Source: a virus (Duplodnaviria > Heunggongvirae > Uroviricota > Caudoviricetes). From it: a DNA stretch of 37,057 bases. Under the pieces are notes generated by a model. That model was not told the origin of the DNA. It saw nothing but the letters and a program-made list of their open reading frames with translations, and searched no databases. The translations under genes were made by a program, and so were the position numbers. Location of the stretch: positions 1 to 37,057 of IMG/VR virus record IMGVR_UViG_2648501920_000014; one strand, given 5' to 3'. Shown here piece by piece: positions 1-25,632 of the stretch (position 1 is the first letter of the stretch; the number at the start of each line of letters is the position of its first letter).

Positions 1-483
1 CTATCTGGTCAGGGTGTCGTACTGTTTTTCACAGACTCTTCCGGCTTCGGCTGCCCGGTCAGCATACTCTGCCAGTTGTCTGTTTCTCTCGAGAGATTTA
101 CTGAGCACGTCGGCAAGCAAAACTCCGGTGTCTGCGGCTGACGTCCCAGCGCCGACAATGGCGTTATACTGCCTGAGCTGCTCACGGATGGCAACGAGCT
201 GTTGCTGCAACCTGCCAGCGCGAGCTGCAGCATCAAGAGCATCATTGCGCGCCTGGTCGATCCTCTGCTGCGCTTCACGTTCATTGATCGCTTTCTCCTG
301 TTCGTAGTGCTGACGAATTCTCTCATCTTCGGTTTTGCGGTCTTCTTTCGCCTGCGCATACCCGGCGTCGTACTGACGACTGCCGTGTACACTCCAGGCA
401 ACAACTCCTGATATGACCAGAACAGCAAGCACCGCCATGATAATCAACTGTTTCCGGTATGCTTTTACGAATGCCAAGATCAT
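1..483 (-). CDS. Rz-like i-spanin (lysis)
   Basis: ATG at 483, stop at 1-3; N-terminal TM helix then Q/R/E/A-rich coiled-coil; last gene of the lysis cassette, overlaps endolysin stop by 4 nt. Confidence 0.6.
9..284 (-). CDS. Rz1-like o-spanin lipoprotein embedded in Rz
   Basis: Alternative frame fully inside Rz; ATG at 284; basic n-region [12 protein letters not shown], hydrophobic core, lipobox LAGC, Ser/Pro/Thr-rich mature part. Start choice uncertain (ATG at 245 also possible). Confidence 0.4.
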   Translation of the reverse strand: MNVKRSRGSTRRAMMLLMLQLALAGCSNSSLPSVSSSGSITPLSALGRQPQTPEFCLPTCSVNLSRETDNWQSMLTGQPKPEESVKNSTTP

Positions 484-1109
484 ACCGCCAGCACCTTACT
501 GGCATTGATGTATCGCGCGCGCCGGTCGTCGATGCCGTTCCGGCCACCATTGATAATCAGAGTTACACGTGCAATATCGCCGGTATACTTCATGCATCCT
601 TTGCTGGCAAAGAACCACGCCGCGCTACGAGCCGCGTATTCGTCCTGCGCCAGCAGTTCAGGACTCTCCAGCAGGTCAACCTTAAGACCGTTTCCACAGT
701 CACGATAGTTATTCAAACCGGTAACCTGGATAAGCCCGCGCCCACGGTAGTTCCAGCCATCACCAGGGGCATTGTTCCCCATGCGTTTGCTGTACACCAG
801 ATTGGCAATCGCTCTCTGGCGCTCAAGTGGCAATGGTGGTTCGCCTGCACGTCGCCCCAATGCGTTGGCCTGTCCCTGAGTGAGACGCCCAGCCCGAACA
901 AAGTTAGCCAGTCCGCTGACGCTGTAGTTGAAATTCTCCTGCAACCGGGTGAAGCCTCCAGACTCATGCCCGACCTGAGCAATAAACATAGCCTGATCTT
1001 CTGGTTTGCTGATACCAAACTCTTTCATCGCAGAAGTTATATGCGAGAACCAGCGTGCGGCCAGTGCCTCGCTGATACCAGCAGCTCGCTGGAATTGTTT
1101 AATCTCCAT
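480..1109 (-). CDS. Endolysin, glycoside hydrolase family 19 (chitinase-like lysozyme)
   Basis: ATG at 1109; motifs [18 protein letters not shown] and NY typical of GH19 phage endolysins; sits between holin candidates and Rz. Confidence 0.8.
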
Positions 1110-1407
1110 GTTTAGACCTCGATACTTTGAAAATTTGAACGACGTTACCGCGCGTTTTAATAACCGCAGCTAGCATGACAGCGTTGATAATGACCTCAGA
1201 TAAATCCACAGCCATTGGCGTACGTAACCAGATTGCATAGGCGACACGAACAGGAATACTGGCCGCAGCAACAATCAGGAAATAAGCAAGCCATCCTCCC
1301 CACCTTCGGTGTTGAGAGCCGTTACGCCGGAATGTGACAACGCGAATTGCTATGCCAGTGCAAATAACTGCATTGGTGATAAGCAAAAAAAACTCATGCG
1401 TTACCAT
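1099..1407 (-). CDS. Small membrane protein, putative holin or antiholin
   Basis: ATG at 1407 preceded by GGGGAG Shine-Dalgarno; 102 aa with hydrophobic helices; immediately upstream of endolysin. Confidence 0.45.
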
Positions 1408-1798
1408 CGTCTTTTCTCCCCGGAATTAACTCGCGTGGATTATCGGAACGGTGATAGAGCCATATACCAATACGCACAGCGACAATTGCTGACACGAATG
1501 CGCCTGCAGAGAAAACAATCCCTTTTTCAAAAGAGTCCTGCGTGATGGTAGGGATCAGGCTGGCTATGCCGATAAGAATTGATGCTGCTGGTTTGTAAAA
1601 GAGAAGGCCGCAAAGAAAGCTGAGCATCGACAGGAGCACCCGGCGACGGATGGGGTACTCTACTGCAGAGGTAACAAAAATTACCGCTCCAGCCAAAGCA
1701 CCCAAAGCAACCTCAGGAGGAACTCCTGCTATCACCGCCGCCAGAGAACTCATGCTAAGCCACTGATTTAAAGTTTCACTGGTTAGTTGAGCTGACAT
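1394..1798 (-). CDS. Putative holin (multi-TM membrane protein)
   Basis: ATG at 1798 with GGTGGA SD (track ORF starts at GTG 1807); about 134 aa with three hydrophobic segments and a charged C-terminus. Confidence 0.45.
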   Translation of the reverse strand: MSAQLTSETLNQWLSMSSLAAVIAGVPPEVALGALAGAVIFVTSAVEYPIRRRVLLSMLSFLCGLLFYKPAASILIGIASLIPTITQDSFEKGIVFSAGAFVSAIVAVRIGIWLYHRSDNPRELIPGRKDDGNA

Positions 1799-2000
1799 GT
1801 TTTCCACCGTTTATATGCATAACAACCTCCTGAACAGTAAAGCATTACGCATAATAAACCATTTATGGTTTTTTGTTACTTTAACATCGTCAATTCCCTG
1901 TTTTTCATGCCGAGAATAAAGCTCACCTTTTACATGACTCTGAAGAAACAAACAGTGAAGAGCAGGTTGAATACCGCACCATTTAATGGCGCGGTAGCAG

Positions 2001-2297
2001 TCAAATAGAGAAATAAACACAAAAACAAAAAACAACAGGAACAGCAAAATCCAACAGACTTCCCACATCCCACACGCGTGGATCAAAACCTCCCCACCAC
2101 GGCATGTTGATACGTTTCCCTTTCCCAAACTTTTCTATCCAGCGATATTCTGCCTGGGTGTGTTCACGCGCAATGAAGAACGTACAACCGGCTATCGCAC
2201 CGTAAGCCCAGTTTCCGGTAAAAATACCAACCAGTACCTGAGCCACAAAAGCGCAAAGCGAGTGAAGAAATGGAGTGACATCAATGCTCTTAATCAT
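2001..2297 (-). CDS. Small hydrophobic membrane protein, function unknown
   Basis: ATG at 2297 overlapping tail fibre stop (ATGA); 98 aa, hydrophobic, AT-rich gene between tail fibre and lysis genes. Confidence 0.4.
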   Translation of the reverse strand: MIKSIDVTPFLHSLCAFVAQVLVGIFTGNWAYGAIAGCTFFIAREHTQAEYRWIEKFGKGKRINMPWWGGFDPRVWDVGSLLDFAVPVVFCFCVYFSI

Positions 2298-4483
2298 GAA
2301 ACTTCCCCATTGGTTGAAAATATGGCTCCTCCAACGCCAAGTGTATTTCGTGTTGTGCTCAACCTCAGAGGGCTGGAGTCAGAATTAGAATATCCTGTAG
2401 CAGAAATAAAAGATCCTCCACTAATAGTCAACTGCGGAACATCGGCTATATCTGAATAAGTTCTGTCAGCAACAGTATTATTTATAGCCACATATGATCC
2501 AAAAAAACTTCTTATTGTTTGGTTTTTAACTTTACTTCCTTCAATGGTTATCCTACTACCACAGTCGGCAATAAATCCTGAATCTGCATCCAGCGTTGCA
2601 TTCATAAAAGAAGCTTCAGATCTCTCTACATCAATCCATCTAATATCTTTTGTGGGATTTGCACCAAATACATGACAAATATTAGAGTTAAACCTTACAC
2701 CATCTTGGAGGTGCATTAATTTTTTTATATCTGTACCCCATAGCCTTGGAAAATTAACAGATGCTCCTGCATGGCAATCAAATCCCAGCTCAGCCCCTGA
2801 GATATCTACAGCCTTTCCTGAAATAACAGCACCAGTGTCTGCATTAACGGCTGTTCCACAATTGCGCATATCATTACCAGCAACATCAACGCAACCCGCA
2901 CCATCAATACGCACACCAAGTGCACATCCATAAAAACCTTTTTCAATATTTGGTTCAAGGACTTTACCACTTGTTTCTGCATCACTTTCTTCAACGTCAT
3001 GTCGTCTTGCATCAACATATGCTGTATGAATGCAGGTTAATCCACGATATGAGCAATGTATAGTTTTATGGTCGCGTATATTAACATTTGAACCATCTCT
3101 TACATTCCATCCTATATAACAATAGCTTGCACTTGACCCCTGAAAATCTGCTTTAACATTATAAATACAATTAACTGACGCAACCGTACTCTCTGTGCAC
3201 CGTTCAAACTTGCTTACAGGCATTGATGCCTTGACATTATTTACCAGTTGCAGGGAAGAGTATCTGCTATAAGAAAAATCACATACGTAATACCCTTCTG
3301 GCATATATGCAGCAACACTTTCCTCATCAGGAGCACATCCGGTATGATATGCACTAATTTTTGCACCAAAACTACCATGAATTCCAACGTAGAACTTTCG
3401 AGCACCTGAATACGGATAGAAATTAAGTTCAGCTTTTTGAGTTACAATAAATGCACAAACATCGCTATCATCTCTATTTTCTTCGATCTGAATAGCAAAT
3501 ACAGGACTTTTTGCTGCATCGCAAATGTAAAATAAATACTTGTATTCGTAATACGTTCTAACGATTTTAGTAAACAAACGAGTGTCAGAGAAAACCACTG
3601 AGTCTTCTGATGTTATTTTAATCCAAGACAAATCAACACCTGAACTGAATTCAATTTGATAGTTGATAATATGCCCGGTCTTAATTCTTATTTCGCAGAA
3701 AGCATTACCACCATCCCACATAGGTCTCATTGACTGGGCTGCAATGATTGCATCTTTGAGTGTAGGGTAATCACCCCATTCGCCAACAGTAATAACAAAA
3801 GTATAATATGAGTTAAAAACAGCGGCATTTTTGCCTTTGGATATCAACTCCTTAATCATAAAAATATTATCTTCGTAATCACAAGGAGAAATTATATCCC
3901 TCATTTTGCTTTGAAATGTTCGTTGTCTTGCCCCGCTTCCTGACGGTATAAACCAACCAAAACCACCAACAACCCCGGCGATTGCAGCATCGACATAATT
4001 ACGCATTGAGCGATTATTTACAGCGTCCTGCTCAAATGATGGATCTGCAAGGTTAGAAATTTTGTTTTGCTTTGCATCGTAATATTTTGCAAGCAAAGAT
4101 GGTTTCATCAATGCACGTCTGAACCACCCAAAACATCGCTGGATCAGCATCGTCAGGTAGTCAAATGCATCTTCATGAACTTCGGGGAAAAATTTTCCCT
4201 GATTGCGAAGATCAGTCTCCTGCACCACATCAAGCACACGCTCTATCGTAATTCGCCAGCCAGCAGCAAGCGGCGACGGGAGAACCACTTCACCGCCACT
4301 ATAAGTGCCCGCTCCAGTTACCTTATAACCGGTATCCAGAACCAATTCTGTTACGTTCCCGTTCAGGTCAGACACCTGAACAACCAGGTCGGTTTTTTTG
4401 AAAATACGGAAGGTATACGGAAATGATGTCGTAACGCCGTTACCGGTGTATTCGTTGTGGTCAACTTCGGTTGAGACCGTCAT
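2294..4483 (-). CDS. Tail fibre / tailspike with T7-type N-terminal anchor and beta-helix-like distal receptor-binding region
   Basis: ATG at 4483; first ~110 aa match the T7 tail-fibre N-terminal pattern; remainder is Gly/Asn/Asp/Val/Ile/Cys-rich and visibly AT-rich. Confidence 0.7.
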   Translation of the reverse strand: MTVSTEVDHNEYTGNGVTTSFPYTFRIFKKTDLVVQVSDLNGNVTELVLDTGYKVTGAGTYSGGEVVLPSPLAAGWRITIERVLDVVQETDLRNQGKFFPEVHEDAFDYLTMLIQRCFGWFRRALMKPSLLAKYYDAKQNKISNLADPSFEQDAVNNRSMRNYVDAAIAGVVGGFGWFIPSGSGARQRTFQSKMRDIISPCDYEDNIFMIKELISKGKNAAVFNSYYTFVITVGEWGDYPTLKDAIIAAQSMRPMWDGGNAFCEIRIKTGHIINYQIEFSSGVDLSWIKITSEDSVVFSDTRLFTKIVRTYYEYKYLFYICDAAKSPVFAIQIEENRDDSDVCAFIVTQKAELNFYPYSGARKFYVGIHGSFGAKISAYHTGCAPDEESVAAYMPEGYYVCDFSYSRYSSLQLVNNVKASMPVSKFERCTESTVASVNCIYNVKADFQGSSASYCYIGWNVRDGSNVNIRDHKTIHCSYRGLTCIHTAYVDARRHDVEESDAETSGKVLEPNIEKGFYGCALGVRIDGAGCVDVAGNDMRNCGTAVNADTGAVISGKAVDISGAELGFDCHAGASVNFPRLWGTDIKKLMHLQDGVRFNSNICHVFGANPTKDIRWIDVERSEASFMNATLDADSGFIADCGSRITIEGSKVKNQTIRSFFGSYVAINNTVADRTYSDIADVPQLTISGGSFISATGYSNSDSSPLRLSTTRNTLGVGGAIFSTNGEVS

Positions 4484-4587
4484 GTTAAATCTCCAGATAG
4501 TCGCAGCACCCGTTGCGCCGCATATCTGGTTATTCTATTACCTGAAAAACCACATATGGATAGAAAGACTGTGAATACGAATAGATA

Positions 4588-4602
4588 TTACCTTTCGGGT
4601 AA
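4588..4602. promoter_or_regulatory. Operator-like inverted repeat TTACC-TTTCG-GGTAA
   Basis: 15-bp dyad with A/T flanks; between tail fibre start (4483) and LexA box; one of at least 14 copies. Confidence 0.4.
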
Positions 4603-4641
4603 TTTGCAAAACGTGCTGGATAGCAAACAAATTATTTGATA

Positions 4642-4657
4642 CTGTATAAATATACAG
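4642..4657. promoter_or_regulatory. LexA (SOS) box CTGTATAAATATACAG
   Basis: Perfect CTGT-N8-ACAG with AT-only spacer, centre of an 18-bp near-palindrome; 21 nt upstream of ATG 4679. Confidence 0.6.
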
Positions 4658-4678
4658 TTATTGCATGGAGAAGATAAG

Positions 4679-4936
4679 ATGCAGCAGTATCACTATCCAC
4701 TGGAAGACGGATTTACCGAAAGGATTCACACGCCGGGAGGCGTCAGGTCACTGGTGGAGGGATCGCACTTGATGAAATTACTCCGGGATCTCGATAAGGA
4801 TGGATTTAATGTCGATGGCCCACTTGCCGAACTGACTGCACTAATTAACTACGTCACCAGCTCACAGATGTCTATGCGGGATCTGCAAACACATCTCGAC
4901 TATTGTGCCGAACAATTACGAAAACAAACCAGATAA
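4679..4936 (+). CDS. Small protein (85 aa), SOS-box-fronted; paralogue of the C-terminal domain of the adjacent Bro-N protein; candidate antirepressor
   Basis: ATG at 4679 with GGAG SD (track ORF begins at TTG 4661); stop TAA 4934-4936; by-eye alignment to Bro-N residues ~165-228. Confidence 0.55.
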   Translation: MQQYHYPLEDGFTERIHTPGGVRSLVEGSHLMKLLRDLDKDGFNVDGPLAELTALINYVTSSQMSMRDLQTHLDYCAEQLRKQTR

Positions 4937-4939
4937 GGT

Positions 4940-4968
4940 TTGCAATTACCAAATGGAGTGCTTATATT
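4940..4968 (+). promoter_or_regulatory. Sigma70-like promoter TTGCAA-17-TATATT
   Basis: -35 TTGCAA 4940-4945, 17-bp spacer, -10 TATATT 4963-4968; operator repeat overlaps the -10 end. Confidence 0.4.
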
Positions 4969-4982
4969 TACCTTTGCGGTAA
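4968..4982. promoter_or_regulatory. Operator-like inverted repeat TTACC-TTTGC-GGTAA
   Basis: 15-bp dyad overlapping the -10/+1 region of the promoter at 4940-4968. Confidence 0.4.
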
Positions 4983-5072
4983 ATTTACATCGCACTCCTC
5001 TTGTGCCATAGTAATCGGGCACTGGCAAAATCCAGTGCCGGGATTGGCGTCCCGGGTTACTAAGTGGCGCAT

Positions 5073-5096
5073 ACCACGCCAGACGTGGTTTTTTTA
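5073..5096 (+). terminator. Rho-independent terminator (ACCACG-CCAGA-CGTGGT + T-run)
   Basis: 6-bp stem, 5-nt loop, followed by 6-7 T; ends an ORF-free transcript of about 120 nt that starts near 4975. Confidence 0.5.
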
Positions 5097-5251
5097 TGCG
5101 TTAAGCACAGCTATATCCGAATTATGGTGGGCTGGGCAGGGGTCCGAAAGGACGCCGGTACCACTTAGGCCGGTACGCCAACCTTGTCCAGTTCACCACC
5201 AGTAATTGGCGTTGCGGTGGTGATTAAAATCACTAAGTGGAGATAACCACC

Positions 5252-5962
5252 ATGGCTAATGCTCAAACTGCCATCTTCAAATTTGAATCTGTTAACCCTA
5301 TCCGTTCCATCATTATCGATGGCCAACCATGGTTTGTAGCCCAAGACGTTTGTAGTGCGCTGCGTATCCAAAACGTCACCCAAGCACTTGAAAAACTGGA
5401 TGATGATGAAAGGTCTATGTTCAACATAGGGCATGAACATCGTGCAATTTTTGACAGCCGAGTAAAAGAGATCAACATCATCTCCGAGTCAGGCCTCTAC
5501 ACACTGATCCTCCGCTGCCGCGACGCAGTGACACCAGGCACTATCCCCTACCGCTTTCGTAAATGGGTTACAGGTGAGGTTCTTCCTCAGATCCGCCGCA
5601 CCGGAAGTTACATTAAAAACTCGCTCCCGCAGGAAGAACGCATAAAGATAGTTGCCGACCAGGTAGCCAACGCCACAGCATCAGCAGTGATGCAGGCAAT
5701 GAAGATAGAGAACAAAACCTACAGTGCCCCACTGAAGCCCGGCTACCGCAGCCTGATTCATTCTCCGTCTGGTGTTCTCGGCCTGACGGAGAACTCACTG
5801 CTGATGAATCTGCTGAACCAGTTACAGGAAGACGGGCACGACGTATCGGGCGCGGCGGCGGAGCTGACCACCATGTTCTGCTACATTGTTGGTGTGAGCA
5901 AATGCCTGCGTGATATCCAGACCCACGCGGAGTACATCAACGACAAGGCTGGGTTCTTCTGA
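5252..5962 (+). CDS. Bro-N domain protein (antirepressor-like) with C-terminal domain paralogous to the 4679-4936 product
   Basis: ATG at 5252 with GGAGA SD (track ORF begins at GTG 5237); N-terminal ~115 aa match the Bro-N pattern (WFVAQDVCSALRI, GLYTLIL, FRKWVTGEVLPQIRRTGSY). Confidence 0.7.
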   Translation: MANAQTAIFKFESVNPIRSIIIDGQPWFVAQDVCSALRIQNVTQALEKLDDDERSMFNIGHEHRAIFDSRVKEINIISESGLYTLILRCRDAVTPGTIPYRFRKWVTGEVLPQIRRTGSYIKNSLPQEERIKIVADQVANATASAVMQAMKIENKTYSAPLKPGYRSLIHSPSGVLGLTENSLLMNLLNQLQEDGHDVSGAAAELTTMFCYIVGVSKCLRDIQTHAEYINDKAGFF

Positions 5963-6034
5963 CGGGCGGCGGCACAGGGATGTGCCTTTAAATAATTCTG
6001 TACAGATTGCAGACTGTGGGTGAATAGCGTACTA

Positions 6035-6049
6035 TTACCTTAAAGGTAA
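6035..6049. promoter_or_regulatory. Operator-like inverted repeat TTACC-TTAAA-GGTAA
   Basis: Immediately upstream of GGAGG SD and ATG 6062; overlaps the -10 of a TTGCAG-17-TACTAT promoter (6007-6035). Confidence 0.4.
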
Positions 6050-6061
6050 AGGAGGCGCGAT

Positions 6062-6229
6062 ATGACAGCGTTGAAAAATCGTACTCAGCACAATGAACAA
6101 GCCAAGCAATGCTGGGATGTCATTGGAAAAGTTATGCTTGGCCGCGCAAGCAAAGAGCGCGACAAGGATATGGTTTACCAGACAGGAACATCTTTCAGCG
6201 ACTTCAAGGCGGCATTTCGCTCCAAATAG
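6062..6229 (+). CDS. Small protein (55 aa), unknown function; first gene of an AT-rich two-gene cassette
   Basis: ATG at 6062, GGAGG SD at 6051-6055, stop TAG 6227-6229; below the 60-aa track cutoff, read by hand. Confidence 0.4.
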   Translation: MTALKNRTQHNEQAKQCWDVIGKVMLGRASKERDKDMVYQTGTSFSDFKAAFRSK

Positions 6230-6249
6230 AAGCACATCAGGAGTTTTCC

Positions 6250-6690
6250 TTGAAGTTTAACATTAGAATATCTAATAGTTTTCTACATGGGGAAAGCAAC
6301 ACCCCTTTCGCTGTAGACGGACCTTTCCTTACTGATGATGAAATAAAAATCATACAAAGTTTTTTAGAGGATGTTGCCAATGGAAGGGCGCTTGTTGGAA
6401 AAAACAAGCCCTCGTGGGTTGATGATAACCATGATAAAATTCCCGGCTCAGACAATTATGAGCAAGAGAATTATTGGCATTATCATTGTGGGCCAACATG
6501 GTATCCAAACACATTTAAGAATTATACCATTAACTTAAATTTCAACCCTGGCGGAAGGCATTCTAATGAATGCATTCATTATGCAAAAAATGATAATGAA
6601 ATTGTCATTGTTGGATTTTCAAGAGAACACATACCTTTCCTTTCATCAGATGGAAACAACAATCCGCTTTTTAATGATGAAGAAGAATAG
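6250..6690 (+). CDS. Hypothetical protein (~146 aa), acidic C-terminus (NDEEE), AT-rich
   Basis: No internal Met; most plausible start is TTG 6250 with AGGAG SD at 6239-6243 (track ORF begins at ATG 6109, which would overlap the upstream gene); stop TAG 6688-6690. Confidence 0.45.
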   Translation: MKFNIRISNSFLHGESNTPFAVDGPFLTDDEIKIIQSFLEDVANGRALVGKNKPSWVDDNHDKIPGSDNYEQENYWHYHCGPTWYPNTFKNYTINLNFNPGGRHSNECIHYAKNDNEIVIVGFSREHIPFLSSDGNNNPLFNDEEE

Positions 6691-6711
6691 CCCGCGCTGC
6701 GGGCTTTTTTG
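6689..6711 (+). terminator. Rho-independent terminator (AGCCCGC-GCT-GCGGGCT + TTTTT)
   Basis: 7-bp GC-rich stem directly after the 6690 stop, followed by a T-run. Confidence 0.6.
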
Positions 6712-6782
6712 TGGGCGAAACAAAAGTCAGTGCTACACTCATTGACGCCACATTGAGGTGGCTTATAGATGGAAATTTCACA

Positions 6783-6944
6783 ATGAAAAAAGCATTTGCT
6801 GCACTGTTCGTTTTGTTGTCTCTGGTAGCTTCAACTCAGGCCTTTGCCGGTCGTTGTCAGCACGACAGCGACACTGCTGCTGACGGCTCCCGCTGCGGTG
6901 GGCGTTCTGCGGATTCCCGCCCTGGTGGCGGTGGCATTCGTTAA
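6783..6944 (+). CDS. Small secreted peptide precursor (53 aa; signal peptide plus ~31-aa Gly/Cys-containing mature part)
   Basis: ATG at 6783; MKKAFAALFVLLSLVASTQAFA looks like a Sec signal peptide with an AFA-G cleavage site; stop TAA 6942-6944; SD is weak. Confidence 0.4.
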   Translation: MKKAFAALFVLLSLVASTQAFAGRCQHDSDTAADGSRCGGRSADSRPGGGGIR

Positions 6945-6966
6945 AAACAAGGCCGCGAAAGCGGCC
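6943..6966 (-). terminator. Hairpin GGCCGC-GAAA-GCGGCC with T-run on the minus strand
   Basis: On the minus strand the hairpin is followed by TTGTTTTT; lies just downstream of the lipoprotein gene end (6983). Confidence 0.45.
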
Positions 6967-6967
6967 T

Positions 6968-6979
6968 GTGACATGTCAC
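6968..6979. repeat. 12-bp perfect palindrome GTGACATGTCAC (copy A)
   Basis: Identical palindrome also at 24071-24082 and 26522-26533; this copy lies between the plus-strand accessory island and the minus-strand lipoprotein gene. Confidence 0.5.
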
Positions 6980-6982
6980 GAC

Positions 6983-7396
6983 TTATAAAGATGACTGATA
7001 TTTTACAACTCTGTTCATGGCATCTTTTTTCACCGAGCTGATATCAGTTCTTATTTTGGCTTCGTCATTACTGCTTATCATGCTATTAATTTTTTGCACT
7101 GACATGCCGTTTCTTTCAGCCATTGCACATACAGCAGCATCGTATGAAGAACTCGCTGCGATGGATATCACCTTGTTACACTCAAACACAGCACCTTCAG
7201 CAATATCAGATGCCGATGAGGCTGGCTTGGTATAAGTCTTGACGTAGTGATCAATACAACTATCCTTCGCCGTCTTGGCAAGAGAAAAATCCATTTTAAC
7301 TTTGTCGCAATATGCCTTATCAACACCGTCATAAACATCATAGGATGTCGAGCAAGCGGATATCAAAAATACCGATAACAGCAATAATTCCTTCAT
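6983..7396 (-). CDS. Lipoprotein (137 aa), AT-rich accessory gene
   Basis: ATG at 7396; signal peptide MKELLLLSVFLISAC with lipobox ISAC; visibly lower GC than flanking virion genes. Confidence 0.6.
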   Translation of the reverse strand: MKELLLLSVFLISACSTSYDVYDGVDKAYCDKVKMDFSLAKTAKDSCIDHYVKTYTKPASSASDIAEGAVFECNKVISIAASSSYDAAVCAMAERNGMSVQKINSMISSNDEAKIRTDISSVKKDAMNRVVKYQSSL

Positions 7397-7405
7397 TGTT
7401 GTTCC

Positions 7406-9880
7406 TTATTGCGGAGTGACATCCTGAGGTCGCCACCAGTATGTCTGGTTAAACTCTTTCTTCGAACGTTGCTCCATTTTACGCAAATAGCCTGGTGAAA
7501 AATACTCCTGCATCTGATTAAAGATCATGTGATCGAGAGCCGCCTTCAAGTACCAGAGATTCGCACCAGGCATCAAACCTTTCCCAAGCTTAACCAGATC
7601 ACCACCAGTCTGCTCATTCTTCCCTTCCACAGCATTTAACGGTATGCCCTGAGCAATCTTCACTACGTCATCAACCAGACCAGCTACCGGGCCAAGCATC
7701 GACGCTAGTGCGCCGCTCCCGTACCTGGTGTGGTCAGAGAAAAGAAAATCACCATACAACCCTGCCCCACCACCTTTTAAAAATGCATTTATCCAGAATT
7801 TAACCATGTTGTCACCGGTCATTTCTTTTGGATTTCTCCCATTAATAAGATCAGTAATCTGCATGGAAAGAGCACCAAGCATGGTTGTGCTTGCTAAAAA
7901 CGTTGCTATATATGCCGCACGCCCACCAGCAGACGGCATCCCCATAGCTCTATGCCAGTGACGCATAACTACCGAGATAGGGAACGATTTAAACAGGAAA
8001 ACACTTCTCGTTAATTCACCTTTCCATGTTCCACGCTGAAGACCAGACCCTACGAACATCTGTTCACGTGCGCCCGGTGTAATAACAGCCATATCAACTT
8101 CTTCAGTTACGGCACCGAGCAGTTTACGCATTGCCTCAAATTTCACGCGTTCAGGCTCACCAAGATGTTTAACTGCTGAATCAGGGATACGCATAATGCT
8201 TTCCGGTGTCAGCATCGTATTATTACCGTTCCCCCAGTCCTCCTGTTGCGCCAGCTTCCATACGCTCCAGTCTGTGTCAGTAATCCCTTTGCTTTTCAGG
8301 ATACGAAAATCAGAGTCATCGAGGCTACGAAGGTCTGGTGTCCGTGACACTACTTCTCCCAGGCTTCCCATCATGGTTACGCCATAGGCGCGCTTGTGCG
8401 CATCTGACCATGCTGTAAGCCCACTGGCACGCATTACCGCCGTTGCCGCCCAACGAGACACAGACGGCCCCATATTATCCATCGCCCAGCGGTTAACGCT
8501 GCCAAGTAGAGATTCCATCGCCAGGCCAGCGCGGCGCGCCCGCGCAAGCTCAGTACGGTTCGTTGGATCCATAGCTTCAAGCTGGTTGCGAAATAACTGG
8601 TTCATTGGAAGGTTGGTAACCTTCGCAGACAGATACATGGTTCCAAGATCAGAGAACGATGACAGCAACGCGGATCCGAGTCTGCTGGCAACCAGCCAGT
8701 TGCGGATATTGTCAGACCATCGCGCGATGTGCGGATTCGCTACAGGCTGTGTTTTTCCGGAAATAAAGTTGTACAGGTTCTCTGTTTTGTTCGCCAGACG
8801 CTCGACGCTACCGGTTTTACTCGGGTTAGCTGTTGCCGTTTCTGCCTTCACCTGATCAAGAAGAGAGCGGAAAACATGATCGGGGTTTGGGCCATATGTT
8901 TCCACCAGTGCAATATCTTTACTGATACCTTCAAGGTGACCGACCATGATTTCCCATAGAGAGCGATCGCCATAAAGTTGCTGATATTGCAGATAGGAAT
9001 CTGCATCTTTGAAATGTATCTGTCGTGATGCATTACCACGGTTAGCACGTGCGCCGGAAATTCGCATTCCGGTATCAGTAAGCTTATTCAGCCCACCAGT
9101 AGCGATCGTGTTATAAGCCTCTCCAAGAAATGCAGACAACTCGGCATCGTTCATCAGTTGTCCATCGGCTCGGGTATAATATTTGCGATCCAGCTTACCT
9201 ATAACATCGCTAACCCATTTATCTTTTGATACCGCCCCAACCTTTTCCATAGAATGATGTTGAGGGATCCCCCAGTTTTCGAGATAGCCAATGTCCCCAC
9301 CAGCATCATTAAACCGGCGGCGCAGCAGCTCTGTAACTTCTCTCCACGCCTTAGCACCTTTTCTTGCTTTAGCATTGCCAGTATTTTGCCCCCGCATTTC
9401 ATATACCAGGTCACGTACGCCCGCTTCATCTTCAAACAGACCAAAAAAGCGAGGATCAACTGCTTCGAATGCCTCCTGCAATTGACTCAATGCATAATCA
9501 CGGGTGGCTTTTGTTCTGGATTCAACAGAGAGGAAATTCGATTTACCGTCTGCATTAAAAGCAATAGTACGGTTAAGAGCGCCAAGTTTCCCATCAGCCC
9601 CTTGATAGCTATTGATAAATTTATCCAATCTCTGACGTGCGGCTATAGTGAGGGCCACACGACGTTTCTTTAATGCCGCTTCTCGCTGTAATTCTTCAGA
9701 TGCCAATTGTGCTGCACGATACAACCGTTCTGATTCGGAAAGTTGTCGCCACGACATCGGGTCATCACGAGCAATGGAGCGCATATTTCGATAAATGCGG
9801 TCTTCAATGTTCTGTATTTCTCGCGCCGTTAACGTGCGCTGCGCCGCCTGCTGGACCGCTTGTATACATTCCTGTCTCAT
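7406..9880 (-). CDS. Large virion internal / ejection protein (824 aa)
   Basis: ATG at 9880; long ORF in the structural operon between internal-protein genes and the tail fibre region; assignment by position and size only. Confidence 0.5.
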   Translation of the reverse strand: MRQECIQAVQQAAQRTLTAREIQNIEDRIYRNMRSIARDDPMSWRQLSESERLYRAAQLASEELQREAALKKRRVALTIAARQRLDKFINSYQGADGKLGALNRTIAFNADGKSNFLSVESRTKATRDYALSQLQEAFEAVDPRFFGLFEDEAGVRDLVYEMRGQNTGNAKARKGAKAWREVTELLRRRFNDAGGDIGYLENWGIPQHHSMEKVGAVSKDKWVSDVIGKLDRKYYTRADGQLMNDAELSAFLGEAYNTIATGGLNKLTDTGMRISGARANRGNASRQIHFKDADSYLQYQQLYGDRSLWEIMVGHLEGISKDIALVETYGPNPDHVFRSLLDQVKAETATANPSKTGSVERLANKTENLYNFISGKTQPVANPHIARWSDNIRNWLVASRLGSALLSSFSDLGTMYLSAKVTNLPMNQLFRNQLEAMDPTNRTELARARRAGLAMESLLGSVNRWAMDNMGPSVSRWAATAVMRASGLTAWSDAHKRAYGVTMMGSLGEVVSRTPDLRSLDDSDFRILKSKGITDTDWSVWKLAQQEDWGNGNNTMLTPESIMRIPDSAVKHLGEPERVKFEAMRKLLGAVTEEVDMAVITPGAREQMFVGSGLQRGTWKGELTRSVFLFKSFPISVVMRHWHRAMGMPSAGGRAAYIATFLASTTMLGALSMQITDLINGRNPKEMTGDNMVKFWINAFLKGGGAGLYGDFLFSDHTRYGSGALASMLGPVAGLVDDVVKIAQGIPLNAVEGKNEQTGGDLVKLGKGLMPGANLWYLKAALDHMIFNQMQEYFSPGYLRKMEQRSKKEFNQTYWWRPQDVTPQ

Positions 9881-21170: not shown

Positions 21171-22846
21171 TGTGATTGCCCACACTGACCACTAACTGCA
21201 TTCGCCATAGCTGACAAAACACTCGGATCCGAAGTTTTAGCTTCGCTTAGCGTCTTGGCACCCTGTGCCGCCGCCATCCCCATCGCCATCATTTGTTGCT
21301 GCTGTTGTTGCTGTGCCCGTTGCTGGCGAGCCTGCTCAACCTGTTCCTGCGGAACAATGACGGTTGGAGACACTCCGGACATATCAGCGAATGCATCGAT
21401 CGCCTGATCAACGTTGAGTTTGTCGAGAGCTTCTGGTTTCGCTTGCGCAAGTTGACCAATGAAGTTAACCGTGGACGCCAGACTGGACAGGCCGATAGAC
21501 TTCTGCGCCTGAGCCATGACGGAAATGTATTCGACCTTCAGGGGCATACCTTCCATCGCGTCAGGCGGTGGCGGCAGCATGTTTTTACGCACCATCATCG
21601 AGAAAGCGCGGTCAATGAGAGGGTTAAGACATTCGTCGTTCAGACGCTCCAGAACCGGCCCCAACATCAGAAGTTTTTCTTCTTTCATTTCGATCACCGC
21701 TTCAACAGGCATCGAGCGGGTATTGATGTTCTGCAACATCATGAACAGATCGACAAAGTAGGCGCTGTTAATGATTTGACGAGTGTCCTGAATGTCTGCT
21801 ACCAGATCTGCTGTACTGGGGTTAACCAGATAAGCAGGCCTGAAACCATCCTGACCAGTAATCTGATCGATATACGTGATGTCGCCAGGAAGAAGGGAGG
21901 CGCGCTGATTCTTGAGGGAAGTCGGAGCAACCATCGGCGGATTGGTGGCTTTATCAATCAACTGCGACTTGCGCTTCTGGAGAAGCTGCAATGCCTTAAC
22001 AGGTCCAAGCGCCAGCATACCCGGGCATGATGATCCATAAACATCTTCGCCATTAACTTCCCAGCGCGGAGCCATAATTGGAAACTCATCAAATCCGGAC
22101 TCACGCAACAACTTGTCGTTATCGCCACCAACCTCGTAATAAACCGATTTGAATGGCTTGTTCTTGCTATCCAGCTTCGATGTATCGCGGTCAATGTTCG
22201 GGTAAACCGAATGCATCACGTCAATCCACTTCTCGTAGGTGCCGCTTTCCCACATGCTTTTTACGGATTCGCTGACGTTATTTAGCCCGAACTCCTGAAC
22301 AAGCTGACGAACAGTCATAGAGAACTTGCGAAAACAGGTGTCCACACTGCCACGAGGTGAGTTAGCAAGGTAGTAACTGCCTATCGGGAATGGCATTGTG
22401 CGAATGATGTCCTCGTCATCCTCCAGCACCGCCATTGCGCCAGTGCTGTATGTGCCGAGGCTTCCGTATAACTGCGGAAGAGACTGGTAGAGATTCGACT
22501 TATTGAACATATCGTTCATGCGGTTCTGCACCGCCTCGAGCCACAACTTAACAGGACCATAATCCATCATTTCAGGATCTGGCGTAGCCAGGCGAAACCA
22601 CGGACGCGCAGGGCTTGTGATGCCTGACATCATGCCGCTGGCGAGAGTGCGCGCCGCCATAGTCCCGGTCGAATCAATAATGCGTGTATTGCGTCGATCG
22701 TTACGGTTGACCTCAGAAGTCAGAAAGCGGGAACCACGCGGGTTGATGTAATCACTCAACTCGCGCCAGTGCGGCTCGAACGACTGACGCTCGCTTTCAA
22801 GTTGTGCGAACTGTTTGTTCAATCGCTCTTTAGTTGTTTCCGCCAT
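21167..22846 (-). CDS. Portal (head-to-tail connector) protein, 559 aa
   Basis: ATG at 22846 with GGAG SD; size and position next to terminase; Gln-rich C-terminal tail. Confidence 0.7.
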   Translation of the reverse strand: MAETTKERLNKQFAQLESERQSFEPHWRELSDYINPRGSRFLTSEVNRNDRRNTRIIDSTGTMAARTLASGMMSGITSPARPWFRLATPDPEMMDYGPVKLWLEAVQNRMNDMFNKSNLYQSLPQLYGSLGTYSTGAMAVLEDDEDIIRTMPFPIGSYYLANSPRGSVDTCFRKFSMTVRQLVQEFGLNNVSESVKSMWESGTYEKWIDVMHSVYPNIDRDTSKLDSKNKPFKSVYYEVGGDNDKLLRESGFDEFPIMAPRWEVNGEDVYGSSCPGMLALGPVKALQLLQKRKSQLIDKATNPPMVAPTSLKNQRASLLPGDITYIDQITGQDGFRPAYLVNPSTADLVADIQDTRQIINSAYFVDLFMMLQNINTRSMPVEAVIEMKEEKLLMLGPVLERLNDECLNPLIDRAFSMMVRKNMLPPPPDAMEGMPLKVEYISVMAQAQKSIGLSSLASTVNFIGQLAQAKPEALDKLNVDQAIDAFADMSGVSPTVIVPQEQVEQARQQRAQQQQQQQMMAMGMAAAQGAKTLSEAKTSDPSVLSAMANAVSGQCGQSQ

Positions 22847-23494: not shown

Positions 23495-23571
23495 GTGGCA
23501 TTAGCTCAGTCGGACAGAGCAACCGCCTTCTAAGCGGTTGGTCGCAGGTTCGAATCCTGCATGCCACGCCA
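23495..23571 (+). tRNA. tRNA-Arg (anticodon TCT, reads AGA)
   Basis: Cloverleaf read by hand: acceptor GTGGCAT/ATGCCAC, D-stem GCTC/GAGC, anticodon stem ACCGC/GCGGT with loop CTTCTAA, T-arm GCAGG-TTCGAAT-CCTGC, discriminator G, encoded CCA. Confidence 0.85.
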
Positions 23572-24156: not shown

Positions 24157-25632
24157 TTAAGCATAGGGATCGTAATCTGTGATGGCCTTGCCTTGCTGGT
24201 TCTGCTGCCCGGGAATTCGCAGACGCTTCGACACAGGGAACGCAAACGTCAGCAGTAGCGCATCGCCTTTACCAGGCGAACGCCCAAGCCGCTCCTTGAT
24301 ATCTTCCTTCGGTTCGATAACGATTTTACCGTCCACTCGAACTTTGTACTCTGCCGCCGACAGATCGTCCGCTGTTTCCTGGTCATCCAGCATCCCGCCC
24401 AGCCTCAGCCATGTCTTGCATGAGTTGAACATCTCCCCACGCTTGTTGAGCATCTGCTGGTCAGTAGACGCGCCACCGAACGGAACAAGTTGCCATGTGC
24501 GCCCCCAACCATCACCGATTGACTTCAGACCGGTACCGTAACCAAAGTCGATGAACACTGCGTCAGCCTGATACAGGTCTTCAAAGTCAGCGATACGCTT
24601 CGCCATAATCAGATCGTCGGTAGTCTTGTTGCCAGTCCACAGCACCTTACTGTGTAGCCCCTGCCGCAGGTATATCACCGCGTCATCAACGCCTGAATAT
24701 GCCGGGTCAACACCGATTATCACCGGAGCATGCGCCACCTGCGCAGCGGTTACCACCCGTTTCATTGCCTCATCAGTAAGACCGGTAGGGATAAACTGCA
24801 ATTCAGATGCATCAGGGAATATGCCGCGCACACGGATTTTAACGAAGTCGCTGTCTTCCCCGTAGTCATCAACCCATTTCTGCAACTGCTGTTTGTTAGT
24901 GCCTTCCACCGTCCGGCTGTCAATCTGCGCAGTTTTCCAGCGGTGTTTATATTTGCGGAAACATTCACGGAATCGCCCGGTATTACGCGTCGGGTTTCCG
25001 AACGCCACCCAGATAATCTCAGTGTCTTCGTCAGTTAGCGCACCTTCGGCAACTTCCCACACCAGATCCGCAATGTTCGACGCTTCATCGAATACCACGA
25101 TGATGCGTTTGCGCTCGTTGTGTAGTCCGGCGAATGCCTCAGTGTTGTGCTCAGACCAGGGGATTGCGTCAGCTCGCCACCGCTTGTCGTGCCCAGGATC
25201 ATTGCTGTACATCGCGGTAGCGGTACAGGTAAACCAGTCTTTCGTGATAGCAAGGTTCGACCACTTGATAATTTCCGGCCAGGTCTTCGTTCGTAGCTGG
25301 TTGTCGGTGTTGGCGGTCACCACGACCTTACAATCCTCGCAAGTGGACATGCCCCAGTTGATCAGCATTGAGATGAATGCGGATTTACCAATACCGTGAC
25401 CAGAAGCACGTGCCAGCATAAGCGGCTGATATCGCGTCTCTGGATTCTGCAGGTGATCACGTATCTCTCGGAACGCATCGGCCTGCCACTGACGTGGACC
25501 GGTGGCATGTGCCAGTTCAGTACCCTCTTCCCCCCACGGGAACGCATAGAGGGCATAGCCAAGCGGATCGTGAGTGAACCCTGCAATATCCTCGATCAAC
25601 TGCTCTTCAGGAGATAACGCTGTATCTGTCAC
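24157..25632 (-). CDS. Terminase large subunit
   Basis: GTG start at 25632 overlapping terS stop (GTGA); Walker A-like GHGIGKS; 491 aa with ATPase then nuclease layout. Confidence 0.85.
   Translation of the reverse strand: MTDTALSPEEQLIEDIAGFTHDPLGYALYAFPWGEEGTELAHATGPRQWQADAFREIRDHLQNPETRYQPLMLARASGHGIGKSAFISMLINWGMSTCEDCKVVVTANTDNQLRTKTWPEIIKWSNLAITKDWFTCTATAMYSNDPGHDKRWRADAIPWSEHNTEAFAGLHNERKRIIVVFDEASNIADLVWEVAEGALTDEDTEIIWVAFGNPTRNTGRFRECFRKYKHRWKTAQIDSRTVEGTNKQQLQKWVDDYGEDSDFVKIRVRGIFPDASELQFIPTGLTDEAMKRVVTAAQVAHAPVIIGVDPAYSGVDDAVIYLRQGLHSKVLWTGNKTTDDLIMAKRIADFEDLYQADAVFIDFGYGTGLKSIGDGWGRTWQLVPFGGASTDQQMLNKRGEMFNSCKTWLRLGGMLDDQETADDLSAAEYKVRVDGKIVIEPKEDIKERLGRSPGKGDALLLTFAFPVSKRLRIPGQQNQQGKAITDYDPYA

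What the first reader, a model, noticed from the sequence alone, without database searches (positions are those of the whole stretch)
2294..4483. Mosaic tail fibre: T7-type N-terminal anchor of normal GC joined to an AT-rich, Cys-containing distal domain
Seen: the first ~110 aa follow the T7 tail-fibre N-terminal pattern and the DNA there (about 4150-4483) looks GC-normal; from roughly 4100 down to 2294 the DNA is visibly AT-rich and the protein becomes beta-helix-like (G/N/D/V/I-rich, many Cys). Established: receptor-binding domains of tail fibres are exchanged horizontally at the junction with the conserved anchor. Inference: the distal domain was acquired from a lower-GC source and may be a polysaccharide depolymerase defining host range.
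Basis: partly seen in the sequence, partly recalled or inferred. Interest (0 to 1): 0.55.

Follow-up and report, generated by a model that had tools for sequence, protein, structure and literature searches.

The report
Three-part mosaic phage tailspike gene
This is the tailspike gene of an epsilon15-like E. coli prophage, assembled by recombination from a conserved virion anchor and a swappable, AT-rich beta-helix host-recognition module also found on unrelated phages; this is a clear but ordinary case of how phages change host range.

Summary
ORF 2294-4483 (-) encodes 729 aa. GC falls from 0.49 to 0.38 near window 4112, and the distal 1.6 kb is the lowest-GC stretch of the whole window (GC3 0.24 against 0.45 in the anchor). 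It holds 17 of the 18 Cys.

The window is an epsilon15/phiV10-like (Uetakevirus) prophage of E. coli, and the gene has three parts, not two.
- aa 181-284: the cap of the distal module, with no close relative.
- aa 285-729: about 98% identical in DNA to tailspikes of P22-like phages (JEP4, HZ41).

Horizontal exchange is shown. Depolymerase activity, the receptor and a low-GC donor remain inferences; lysogens carry O5, O11 and O15.

Verdict: a real but ordinary feature, a new member of a known kind. A small membrane ORF that often travels with the module is the most interesting side lead.

The parts
2294..4483 (-). Tailspike gene, 729 aa plus stop. It is the only tailspike or fibre gene I identified in this Uetakevirus-type prophage window; I did not check the other ORFs for one.
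   Evidence: ORF list. Full-length match to phrog_5662 'tail fiber protein'. 99.6% identical to phage HEMP4, and 98.8-100% identical (seven at 100.0%) in 11 of 5426 complete E. coli genomes. The window backbone is 96-98% identical to HEMP4, phiv142-3 and phiV10.
4491..4494 (-). Shine-Dalgarno GGAG, 7 nt upstream of the ATG
   Evidence: Read directly from the sequence.
4223..4468 (-). Anchor beta-sandwich (aa 6-87), the virion-attachment domain with the T7 gp17 N-terminal fold
3944..4222 (-). Anchor neck (aa 88-180), predicted helical and probably a trimeric coiled coil. It is still part of the conserved Uetakevirus anchor, although GC already falls here.
   Evidence: Helices 102-126 and 158-172 in the AF2 model, at low monomer confidence. 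Homologous to the coiled-coil domain D2 of Dpo31 (PMC13317679). At least 28 of 30 nt identical to ZX5 up to aa 180.
3632..3943 (-). Segment B (aa 181-284): linker motif RTFQSKMRDIISPCDY (aa 188-203, window 3875-3922) plus the N-terminal cap and first coils of the beta-helix module. No close relative is known outside this exact protein.
   Evidence: Nucleotide identity to ZX5 drops to about 16 of 30 after aa 180. Identity to JEP4 is only 54% nt and 43% aa up to aa 284. The linker motif is shared with the otherwise unrelated ZX5 fibre and opens the module in all family members.
2297..3631 (-). Segment C (aa 285-729): the body of the right-handed parallel beta-helix, the presumed receptor-binding and possibly catalytic part. 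It is nearly identical to the tailspikes of P22-like phages.
3005..3100 (-). Invariant polar cluster R462-D463, R470, H486 and R493 on two successive coils. This is the candidate substrate-binding or catalytic site (an inference).
   Evidence: These residues are invariant across 23 sequences, including relatives of only 20-26% identity.
2038..3666 (.). DNA block shared with P22-like phage JEP4 (97.9% over 1631 nt). It spans segment C and the first roughly 87 codons of the downstream small ORF.
   Evidence: blastn of window 1-7500 against L001. The same block is found in HZ41, 92CQ and 5 complete E. coli genomes, where it is annotated 'phage head-binding domain-containing protein'.
2001..2297 (-). 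Small ORF (98 aa) whose sequence has hydrophobic stretches suggesting a membrane protein; no transmembrane predictor was run. Its start overlaps the tailspike stop (ATGA). It frequently travels with the module. Function unknown; it may act in lysogenic conversion or superinfection exclusion.
   Evidence: phrog_1443, function unknown. No Pfam or NCBIfam match. Homologues lie directly downstream of the module gene in JEP4, L013, L014 and L017.

Best explanation
The gene encodes the tailspike of a temperate epsilon15/phiV10-like podovirus (Uetakevirus) integrated in E. coli. It was assembled by at least two recombination events.

1. aa 1-180 are the lineage's own anchor. A beta-sandwich with the T7 gp17 N-terminal fold docks the spike on the tail, and a helical neck follows.
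2. aa 181-284 carry a widely shared linker motif and the cap of a beta-helix module.
3. aa 285-729 are the body of that module, recently exchanged with P22-like phages. The exchanged block also includes part of a small downstream ORF.

The module is a long right-handed parallel beta-helix. It belongs to a rare, uncharacterised family that is grafted onto at least five different virion anchors in podo- and myoviruses of Escherichia, Salmonella and Aeromonas.

By analogy with all characterised tailspikes of this fold, the protein is presumed to form a trimer, bind a cell-surface polysaccharide along one face of the helix, and so set the host range. The invariant Arg/Asp/His cluster at aa 462-493 may cleave that polysaccharide.

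What is shown: the mosaic structure, the exchange between backbones, both folds, and remote homology to Andhra gp15. What is inferred: trimer formation, the polysaccharide receptor, enzymatic cleavage, and the lower-GC origin.
For: Backbone: the window is 96-98% identical to Uetakeviruses.

Anchor:
- 93% aa identity to ZX5 and 70% to epsilon15 gp20.

Junctions: nucleotide identity changes sharply at aa 180 (ZX5) and at aa 284/285 (JEP4). The shared DNA blocks are defined.

Module family:
- 24 proteins of 37-100% identity sit on PF09008, PF18668, PF12571, PF03906 or no-Pfam anchors. Two carry an extra C-terminal SGNH esterase.
- Only 16 cluster representatives reach E<1e-30 among 1.84 billion.

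Fold and homology:
- AF2 pLDDT 91.4.
- hhalign of the family profile against Andhra gp15 gives 98.5% probability, E 1.6e-15.
- Remote relatives match Pfam Beta_helix.

Conserved site: R462, D463, R470, H486 and R493 persist at 20-26% identity.

Composition: GC3 is 0.24 in the module against 0.45 in the anchor. The module is below its context in the window, JEP4, VEc3, L013 (0.47 against 0.62) and L017. It equals its context in L014, L015 and L018 at about 0.41-0.44.

Established knowledge: P22-like tailspikes keep a conserved head-binding domain joined to unrelated C-terminal domains that bind and cleave O-antigen (PMC2629481).
Against: - No enzymatic activity is documented for any family member. 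The nearest solved relative, Andhra gp15, has only a predicted similarity to alginate lyases (PMC9710869).
- The second-best structural neighbour, Vag8, is a non-enzymatic autotransporter passenger.
- No Pfam, NCBIfam or PDB sequence match covers the module.
- I had no model coordinates, so I could not test whether the conserved cluster lies on a solvent-exposed groove or at a trimer interface.
- Lysogens carry different O-antigen loci (O11, O15, O5). The receptor therefore cannot be read from the hosts, and a strictly O-type-specific receptor is not supported.
- The GC change-point (aa 123) does not coincide with the homology junction (aa 180).
Confidence: 0.8

Rival explanations
1. The beta-helix is a binding-only adhesin. 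It recognises a surface glycan or protein but does not cleave it, so the protein is a receptor-binding spike and not a depolymerase.
Confidence: 0.3
2. The receptor is a conserved, non-O-antigen surface glycan, such as LPS core, ECA or an exopolysaccharide, rather than one O serotype. This would give the phage a broad host range.
For: Lysogens carrying the identical aa 351-729 have O11 (MS 198-1), O15 (at least 5 strains) and O5 (FORC_082) loci. JEP4, which carries the same body, was reported to infect 48% of 67 diverse ESBL E. coli (PMC8425383). The module is strongly conserved across genera.
Against: The O15 and O11 lysogens have the prophage at the same chromosomal offset. They may belong to one lineage that switched O-antigen after lysogeny. 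The JEP4 paper reports myovirus morphology for a P22-like genome, so its host-range data may not belong to this tailspike. The module is rare (16 of 5426 genomes), which fits a narrow specificity better.
Confidence: 0.25
3. The low GC reflects codon or amino-acid constraints, or local mutational bias, in tail-fibre genes rather than foreign origin.
For: The GC decline starts inside the conserved anchor neck (aa 123), before the junction. A second low-GC island lies at 6300-6800. Distal parts of receptor-binding genes are often AT-rich; this rests on my own knowledge.
Against: GC3 (0.225-0.24) carries most of the shift, so amino-acid content does not explain it. About 98% identical DNA sits in an unrelated P22-like backbone. 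In a 62% GC Aeromonas prophage the module is 47% while its own N-terminal part is 58%. In a 53% GC T7-like contig the module is 54%, so the fold does not force low GC.
Confidence: 0.07

Closest known systems
Tailspike gp20 of Salmonella phage epsilon15 and the tail fibres of phiV10-like Uetakeviruses (ZX5, phiv142-3)
   Same: Same genome type and same gene position, upstream of the lysis cassette. The N-terminal anchor is homologous: 70% aa identity to epsilon15 over aa 1-165 and 93% to ZX5 over aa 1-203.
   Different: The distal domain is unrelated. ZX5 has a 1039-aa fibre, and others carry GH28-related, Peptidase_S74 or 'eliminase' domains. Where phiV10 has an O-acetyltransferase next to the fibre, this window has only a 98-aa ORF of unknown function.
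Tailspikes of P22-like phages JEP4 and HZ41 (Lederbergvirus) and P22-like E. coli prophages
   Same: aa 285-729 are 99-100% identical in protein and 97.6% in DNA. The same small ORF follows the gene.
   Different: Their N-terminus is the P22 head-binding domain (PF09008), not the T7-type anchor. The first roughly 100 residues of the module are only 43% identical.
Receptor-binding protein gp15 of Staphylococcus epidermidis picovirus Andhra (PDB 8egr)
   Different: Identity is 17-19%. The host is Gram-positive and the receptor is wall teichoic acid. Attachment is through an N-terminal loop and coiled-coil stem to the portal and collar (PMC9710869). The hhalign alignment lacks the coil that carries R462, D463 and R470.
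T7 gp17 N-terminal domain (Pfam PF03906; PDB 7boz) and Dpo31 of Cobetia phage Carin-1
   Different: The Pfam T7-tail model scores below threshold, and hhalign against T7 gp17 is not significant (E 0.017). The distal domains are unrelated. T7 gp17 is a fibre with a small tip domain, not a beta-helix; this last point rests on my own knowledge.

Membership tests
T7 gp17-type N-terminal tail-fibre anchor (Pfam PF03906 Phage_T7_tail) | Sequence match to the Pfam model at or above the gathering score | tested here: not met
   11.1 bits against a cut-off of 25.2, E 0.33, covering only aa 135-161. hhalign of the anchor profile against T7 gp17 aa 1-200 gives E 0.017 and probability 2.7%, although the alignment is colinear.
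T7 gp17-type N-terminal tail-fibre anchor (Pfam PF03906 Phage_T7_tail) | The N-terminal beta-sandwich superposes on the solved T7 gp17 N-terminal domain | tested here: met
T7 gp17-type N-terminal tail-fibre anchor (Pfam PF03906 Phage_T7_tail) | Docks on the adaptor/nozzle interface of a podovirus tail | not testable with these tools
   This needs a virion structure or binding assays. The homologous domain D1 of Dpo31 was placed at the base of the Carin-1 virion (PMC13317679).
Uetakevirus (epsilon15/phiV10-like) tailspike | Anchor homologous to epsilon15 gp20, and the gene sits in a Uetakevirus genome next to the lysis genes | tested here: met
   70% aa identity to epsilon15 over aa 1-165. The window is 96-98% identical to phiV10, phiv142-3 and HEMP4. 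Holins, a GH19 endolysin and DUF2514 lie downstream.
Right-handed parallel beta-helix tailspike/depolymerase (pectin-lyase-like fold) | Right-handed parallel beta-helix fold in the distal domain | tested here: met
Right-handed parallel beta-helix tailspike/depolymerase (pectin-lyase-like fold) | Match to a curated beta-helix or glycanase sequence family (PF13229, PF12708, GH28 and similar) | tested here: not met
   No Pfam or NCBIfam family covers aa 185-729. A PDB profile search hits only the anchors of family members.
Right-handed parallel beta-helix tailspike/depolymerase (pectin-lyase-like fold) | An identifiable catalytic site in a surface groove | tested here: inconclusive
   The cluster R462, D463, R470, H486, R493 is invariant down to 20% identity. 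I had no coordinates to place it in three dimensions, and it could not be matched to the catalytic residues of a characterised enzyme.
Right-handed parallel beta-helix tailspike/depolymerase (pectin-lyase-like fold) | Homotrimer that cleaves a host surface polysaccharide | not testable with these tools
   Only monomer predictions were available, and no biochemistry.
Andhra gp15-type receptor-binding protein | Homology of the beta-helix domain to gp15 | tested here: met
P22-type tailspike | N-terminal head-binding domain (PF09008) | tested here: not met
   It is absent from this protein. It is present in the sister proteins P0002, P0006, P0007 and P0018, which carry the same module.
Tail fibres with a C-terminal intramolecular chaperone (Peptidase_S74, PF13884) | C-terminal S74 chaperone domain | tested here: not met
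   No PF13884 match. The beta-helix runs to the C-terminus in the model.

The most novel reading that the evidence does not exclude
The beta-helix module and the small ORF that follows it form a mobile two-gene host-range and immunity cassette. The module would be a new depolymerase family, related to Gram-positive picovirus receptor-binding proteins. It would use an Arg/Asp/His centre at aa 462-493 to act on a conserved, non-O-antigen glycan of Enterobacteria and Aeromonas. The co-travelling 98-aa protein, found after the module only in the temperate or prophage-like contexts I read, would mask or modify that receptor in lysogens.
Probability: 0.12. Interest if true: 0.65.

Novelty: new member of a known kind. 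Interest (0 to 1): 0.35.

Why it matters
Exchange of receptor-binding modules between conserved anchors is the main way tailed phages change host. This locus is a clean natural example with both junctions resolved to within a few codons. One junction lies at a linker motif shared by many tailspikes, and one lies inside the beta-helix at an invariant motif. That information helps in designing chimeric tailspikes.

The module is an unannotated family, labelled 'hypothetical' or 'phage tail protein' in hundreds of E. coli records. It links tailspikes of Gram-negative phages to the receptor-binding protein of a staphylococcal picovirus. If it proves to be enzymatic, it would add a new depolymerase family with a defined candidate active site. 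Otherwise the finding is ordinary.

Tried and rejected
1. Reading the receptor from lysogen serotypes. I located the O-antigen loci of three hosts and found O11 (MS 198-1), O15 (118UI) and O5 (FORC_082). Among the 60 of 100 O15 genomes listed, five of the eleven Uetakevirus-type lysogens appear. None of the other 15 module-carrying genomes appears among the 60 of 66 O11 genomes listed. The O types are heterogeneous and probably confounded by clonality, so no receptor could be assigned.

2. Sequence searches for the module. Pfam, NCBIfam, a PDB phmmer search and a PDB profile search found nothing, or hit only the N-terminal anchors of family members.

3. Sequence-level test of the 'T7-type' claim. 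Pfam was sub-threshold and hhalign was not significant. The question was settled only at the fold level.

4. The JEP4 paper gave no receptor. Its reported morphology conflicts with the genome type, so I did not rely on its host range.

5. The promoter and terminator scan of 1700-4800 found nothing above the shuffle expectation.

6. The overlapping ORFs 2160-2459 (+), 2806-3018 (-), 4067-4426 (+) and 1811-2128 (-) are treated as spurious. They lie inside or against a gene whose frame is conserved across many homologues, and 1811-2128 matches no Pfam or PHROG family.

7. An anchor search in the 5.8-billion-protein collection returned mostly truncated proteins. It was not useful for counting the distal-domain types attached to this anchor.
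Full report
**1. The observation**

Window 2294..4483 on the minus strand is a single 729-aa ORF. It has a GGAG ribosome-binding site 7 nt upstream of the ATG.

GC is 0.488 for the window and 0.400 for the gene.
- A maximum-likelihood single change-point falls at gene nt 371 (aa 123, window 4112), separating 0.493 from 0.382. Only 3 of 500 permutations reached the observed likelihood ratio.
- The shift lies mainly in third codon positions. GC3 is 0.44 for aa 1-178 and 0.225 for aa 276-729.
- The module-coding stretch 2297-3931 is the lowest-GC 1635-nt window of 709 across the whole 37 kb.

Seventeen of the 18 cysteines lie beyond aa 200. That is 3.1% Cys, against 0.6% in other large ORFs of the window. 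Four of them (C263, C477, C520, C542) are invariant in the family.

The 'G/N/D/V-rich' description is not borne out; the module is enriched in I, S, C, F and Y.

**2. What the window is**

The window is 96-98% identical over most of its first 25 kb to Escherichia phages HEMP4, phiv142-3 and phiV10, all of genus Uetakevirus, the epsilon15-like temperate podoviruses.

In E. coli MS 198-1 the same sequence is a prophage beside yfgI.

Downstream of the tailspike lie a 98-aa ORF, two holin-family genes, a GH19 endolysin and a DUF2514 protein. The gene matches phrog_5662 ('tail fiber protein') from end to end.

The identical or near-identical gene occurs in 11 of 5426 complete E. coli genomes and in phage HEMP4. 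Public records name it only 'phage tail protein' or 'hypothetical protein'.

**3. The mosaic**

DNA comparison splits the region cleanly.
- Window 3948-6004 matches the Uetakevirus vB_EcoP_ZX5.
- Window 2038-3666 is 97.9% identical to the tailspike 3' part, plus the downstream ORF, of JEP4. JEP4 is a P22-like Lederbergvirus with an otherwise unrelated backbone.

Codon-aligned identity shows two sharp steps.
- ZX5 is at least 28 of 30 nt identical up to aa 180, then about 16 of 30.
- JEP4 is about 17 of 30 up to aa 284, then at least 27 of 30.

The protein therefore has three segments.
- **A (aa 1-180):** the Uetakevirus anchor.
- **B (aa 181-284):** homologous to the JEP4-type module at only 43% aa identity, with no closer relative in any database searched.
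- **C (aa 285-729):** 99-100% identical to the JEP4 type.

The A/B junction precedes a linker motif, RTFQSKMRDIISPCDY (aa 188-203). ZX5's otherwise unrelated 1039-aa fibre shares this motif, and it opens the module in every family member. The B/C junction sits at the invariant motif DLSWIKITSED. Both junctions are thus at conserved sequence, as expected for homologous recombination; this last point is an inference.

The GC change-point (aa 123) lies inside the anchor's neck, about 57 codons before the A/B junction.

**4. The anchor**

- A PDB sequence search finds only Dpo31 of Cobetia phage Carin-1, over aa 1-202 (E 2e-31). [quoted passage not shown]
- The Pfam T7-tail model is sub-threshold (11.1 against 25.2 bits).
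- hhalign against T7 gp17 is colinear but not significant.
- An AF2 model of aa 1-185 is confident for the sandwich (aa 6-85, pLDDT about 90) and poor for the neck.

'T7-type' is therefore supported at the fold level but not at Pfam's sequence threshold.

**5. The distal module**

A search with aa 165-729 found 24 proteins covering the whole module at 37-100% identity. They sit on the following N-termini:
- P22 head-binding (PF09008)
- CBA120-type Tail_spike_N (PF18668)
- tail-collar fibre (PF12571)
- T7-tail (PF03906)
- the present epsilon15 type
- short SP6-like N-termini, as in phage VEc3

Two of them carry an added C-terminal SGNH esterase.

An exhaustive HMMER scan of 1.84 billion cluster representatives found only 16 with E<1e-30 and 36 with E<1e-10. 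The more remote relatives carry Pfam Beta_helix or Tail_spike_N, and one carries a GDPD domain.

AF2 with the family alignment gives pLDDT 91.4 and pTM 0.87, showing a long, regular beta-helix.
- Foldseek agrees (E 9.5e-13).
- The family profile aligns to Andhra gp15 with 98.5% probability.
- Andhra gp15 is described as a trimeric beta-helix receptor-binding protein related to alginate lyases and to phi29 gp12, without demonstrated activity (PMC9710869).

When relatives of 20-26% identity are added, the invariant polar residues are Q276, D294, S450, R462, D463, R470, H486 and R493. The last five lie on two successive coils. This is my candidate functional site. I could not place it in three dimensions.

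**6. Origin of the low GC**

The module is lower in GC than its surroundings in five backgrounds:

| Background | Module GC | Context GC |
|---|---|---|
| This window | 0.38 | 0.49 |
| JEP4 | 0.37 | 0.44 |
| VEc3 | 0.39 | 0.46 |
| Aeromonas media P2-like prophage (L013) | 0.47 | 0.62 |
| L017 | 0.44 | 0.51 |

In the Aeromonas gene, the N-terminal part has GC 0.58.

The module matches its surroundings in three metagenomic phage contigs of 0.41-0.44 GC. It is also 0.54 in a 0.53 GC T7-like contig.

This pattern fits circulation from a pool of about 40% GC with partial amelioration. It shows that the fold itself does not impose low GC. No donor can be named.

**7. Receptor**

Only 16 of 5426 complete E. 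coli genomes carry segment C. Eleven have it on the Uetakevirus anchor and five on a P22 head-binding domain.

The O-antigen loci are:
- O11 in MS 198-1
- O15 in 118UI and at least four other Uetakevirus-type lysogens
- O5 in FORC_082, which carries the P22-like version

O15 is enriched against a base rate of 100 in 5426. However, those lysogens carry the prophage at the same chromosomal offset and may be clonal. The three serotypes together give no consistent receptor.

JEP4 was reported to infect 48% of 67 ESBL E. coli. The same paper shows myovirus morphology for what is a P22-like genome (PMC8425383), so I do not rely on its host range.

**8. Mechanism and rivals**

Most likely (0.8), this is a tailspike that works as follows.
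- It docks through the T7-fold sandwich.
- It trimerises through the neck and helix.
- It binds a surface polysaccharide on the beta-helix and so sets host range.

Within that explanation, I put enzymatic cleavage at roughly 55-60%. The arguments for it are the invariant charged cluster and the predominance of depolymerases among the structural neighbours. The arguments against are the absence of any characterised active relative and the two top neighbours being non-enzymatic or untested.

Three rivals are scored in the report sections: a binding-only adhesin, a conserved non-O-antigen receptor, and a compositional artefact.

**9. Comparison with known systems and novelty**

Conserved anchors joined to interchangeable receptor-binding domains are textbook for P22-like and other phages (PMC2629481). 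This locus is a well-resolved new instance.

The less ordinary aspects are these:
- the module family is unannotated and rare
- its closest solved relative is in a Gram-positive picovirus
- there is a second recombination junction inside the beta-helix
- a small ORF of unknown function accompanies the module on four other backbones (JEP4, L013, L014, L017) but is absent after it in T7-like and SP6-like genomes

I rate the finding as a new member of a known kind, with interest 0.35.

Noticed in passing
window 2001-2297 (-); also L001:3705-4004, L013:6790-7089, L014:5989-6276, L017:5602-5892: A 98-aa ORF starts on the tailspike stop codon (ATGA). Its sequence has hydrophobic stretches suggesting a membrane protein, though no transmembrane predictor was run. 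It carries the conserved motif FIAREHTQAEYRWI..FG.GKR..MPWWGGFD, belongs to phrog_1443 (function unknown) and has no Pfam or NCBIfam match. Homologues of 52-89% aa identity lie directly after the same beta-helix module in a P22-like phage, an Aeromonas P2-like prophage and two metagenomic contigs. None follows the module in T7-like L016, SP6-like VEc3, L015 or L018. It also follows tail-fibre genes in lambdoid phages. In this window it occupies the slot where phiV10-like phages carry an O-antigen acetylase. It may act in lysogenic conversion or exclusion.
   Followed up: partly
window 5019-5095 (+) and 5120-5203 (+), upstream of ORF 5237-5962 (+): Rfam matches above gathering score to the isrK Hfq-binding sRNA (67.7 bits) and C4 antisense RNA (66 bits). 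They lie immediately upstream of a BRO-N, anti-repressor-like gene. This looks like a P1/P7-type antisense-RNA immunity module next to the tailspike.
   Followed up: no
window 23495-23571 (+): A tRNA-Arg (anticodon TCT) lies in the gap between the portal-side ORF ending at 22846 and the terminase-side ORF at 24157-25632.
   Followed up: no
window 6300-6800: A second low-GC island (GC about 0.37) overlaps ORF 6109-6690 (193 aa, no Pfam match). It is another probable moron or acquired segment.
   Followed up: no
L006:4778-7109 (MS 198-1), L008:8955-11188 (118UI), L010:42762-43459 (FORC_082): All three lysogens whose O-antigen loci I read have an insertion sequence at the galF end of the cluster: IS4 inside galF, ISAs1 copies, and IS1. 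This may be a coincidence or a common feature of O-antigen loci. It could affect O-antigen expression in these hosts.
   Followed up: no
P0015, P0018; P0185: Two family members carry an extra C-terminal SGNH/GDSL esterase after the module. One remote relative carries a glycerophosphodiester phosphodiesterase domain. These are accessory enzymatic domains typical of glycan- or teichoic-acid-modifying phage receptor-binding proteins.
   Followed up: no
Phage JEP4 record MT740315 (L001) and PMC8425383: The paper describes JEP4 as a myovirus with a contractile tail, but the deposited 39-kb genome is a P22-like Lederbergvirus with an integrase and a C2 repressor. The published host range may not belong to this genome.
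   Followed up: no
NZ_CP146687.1 (MS 198-1), NZ_AP039429.1, NZ_CM142789.1: These genomes show two separate places matching the tailspike query. This suggests a second prophage sharing part of the gene.
   Followed up: no
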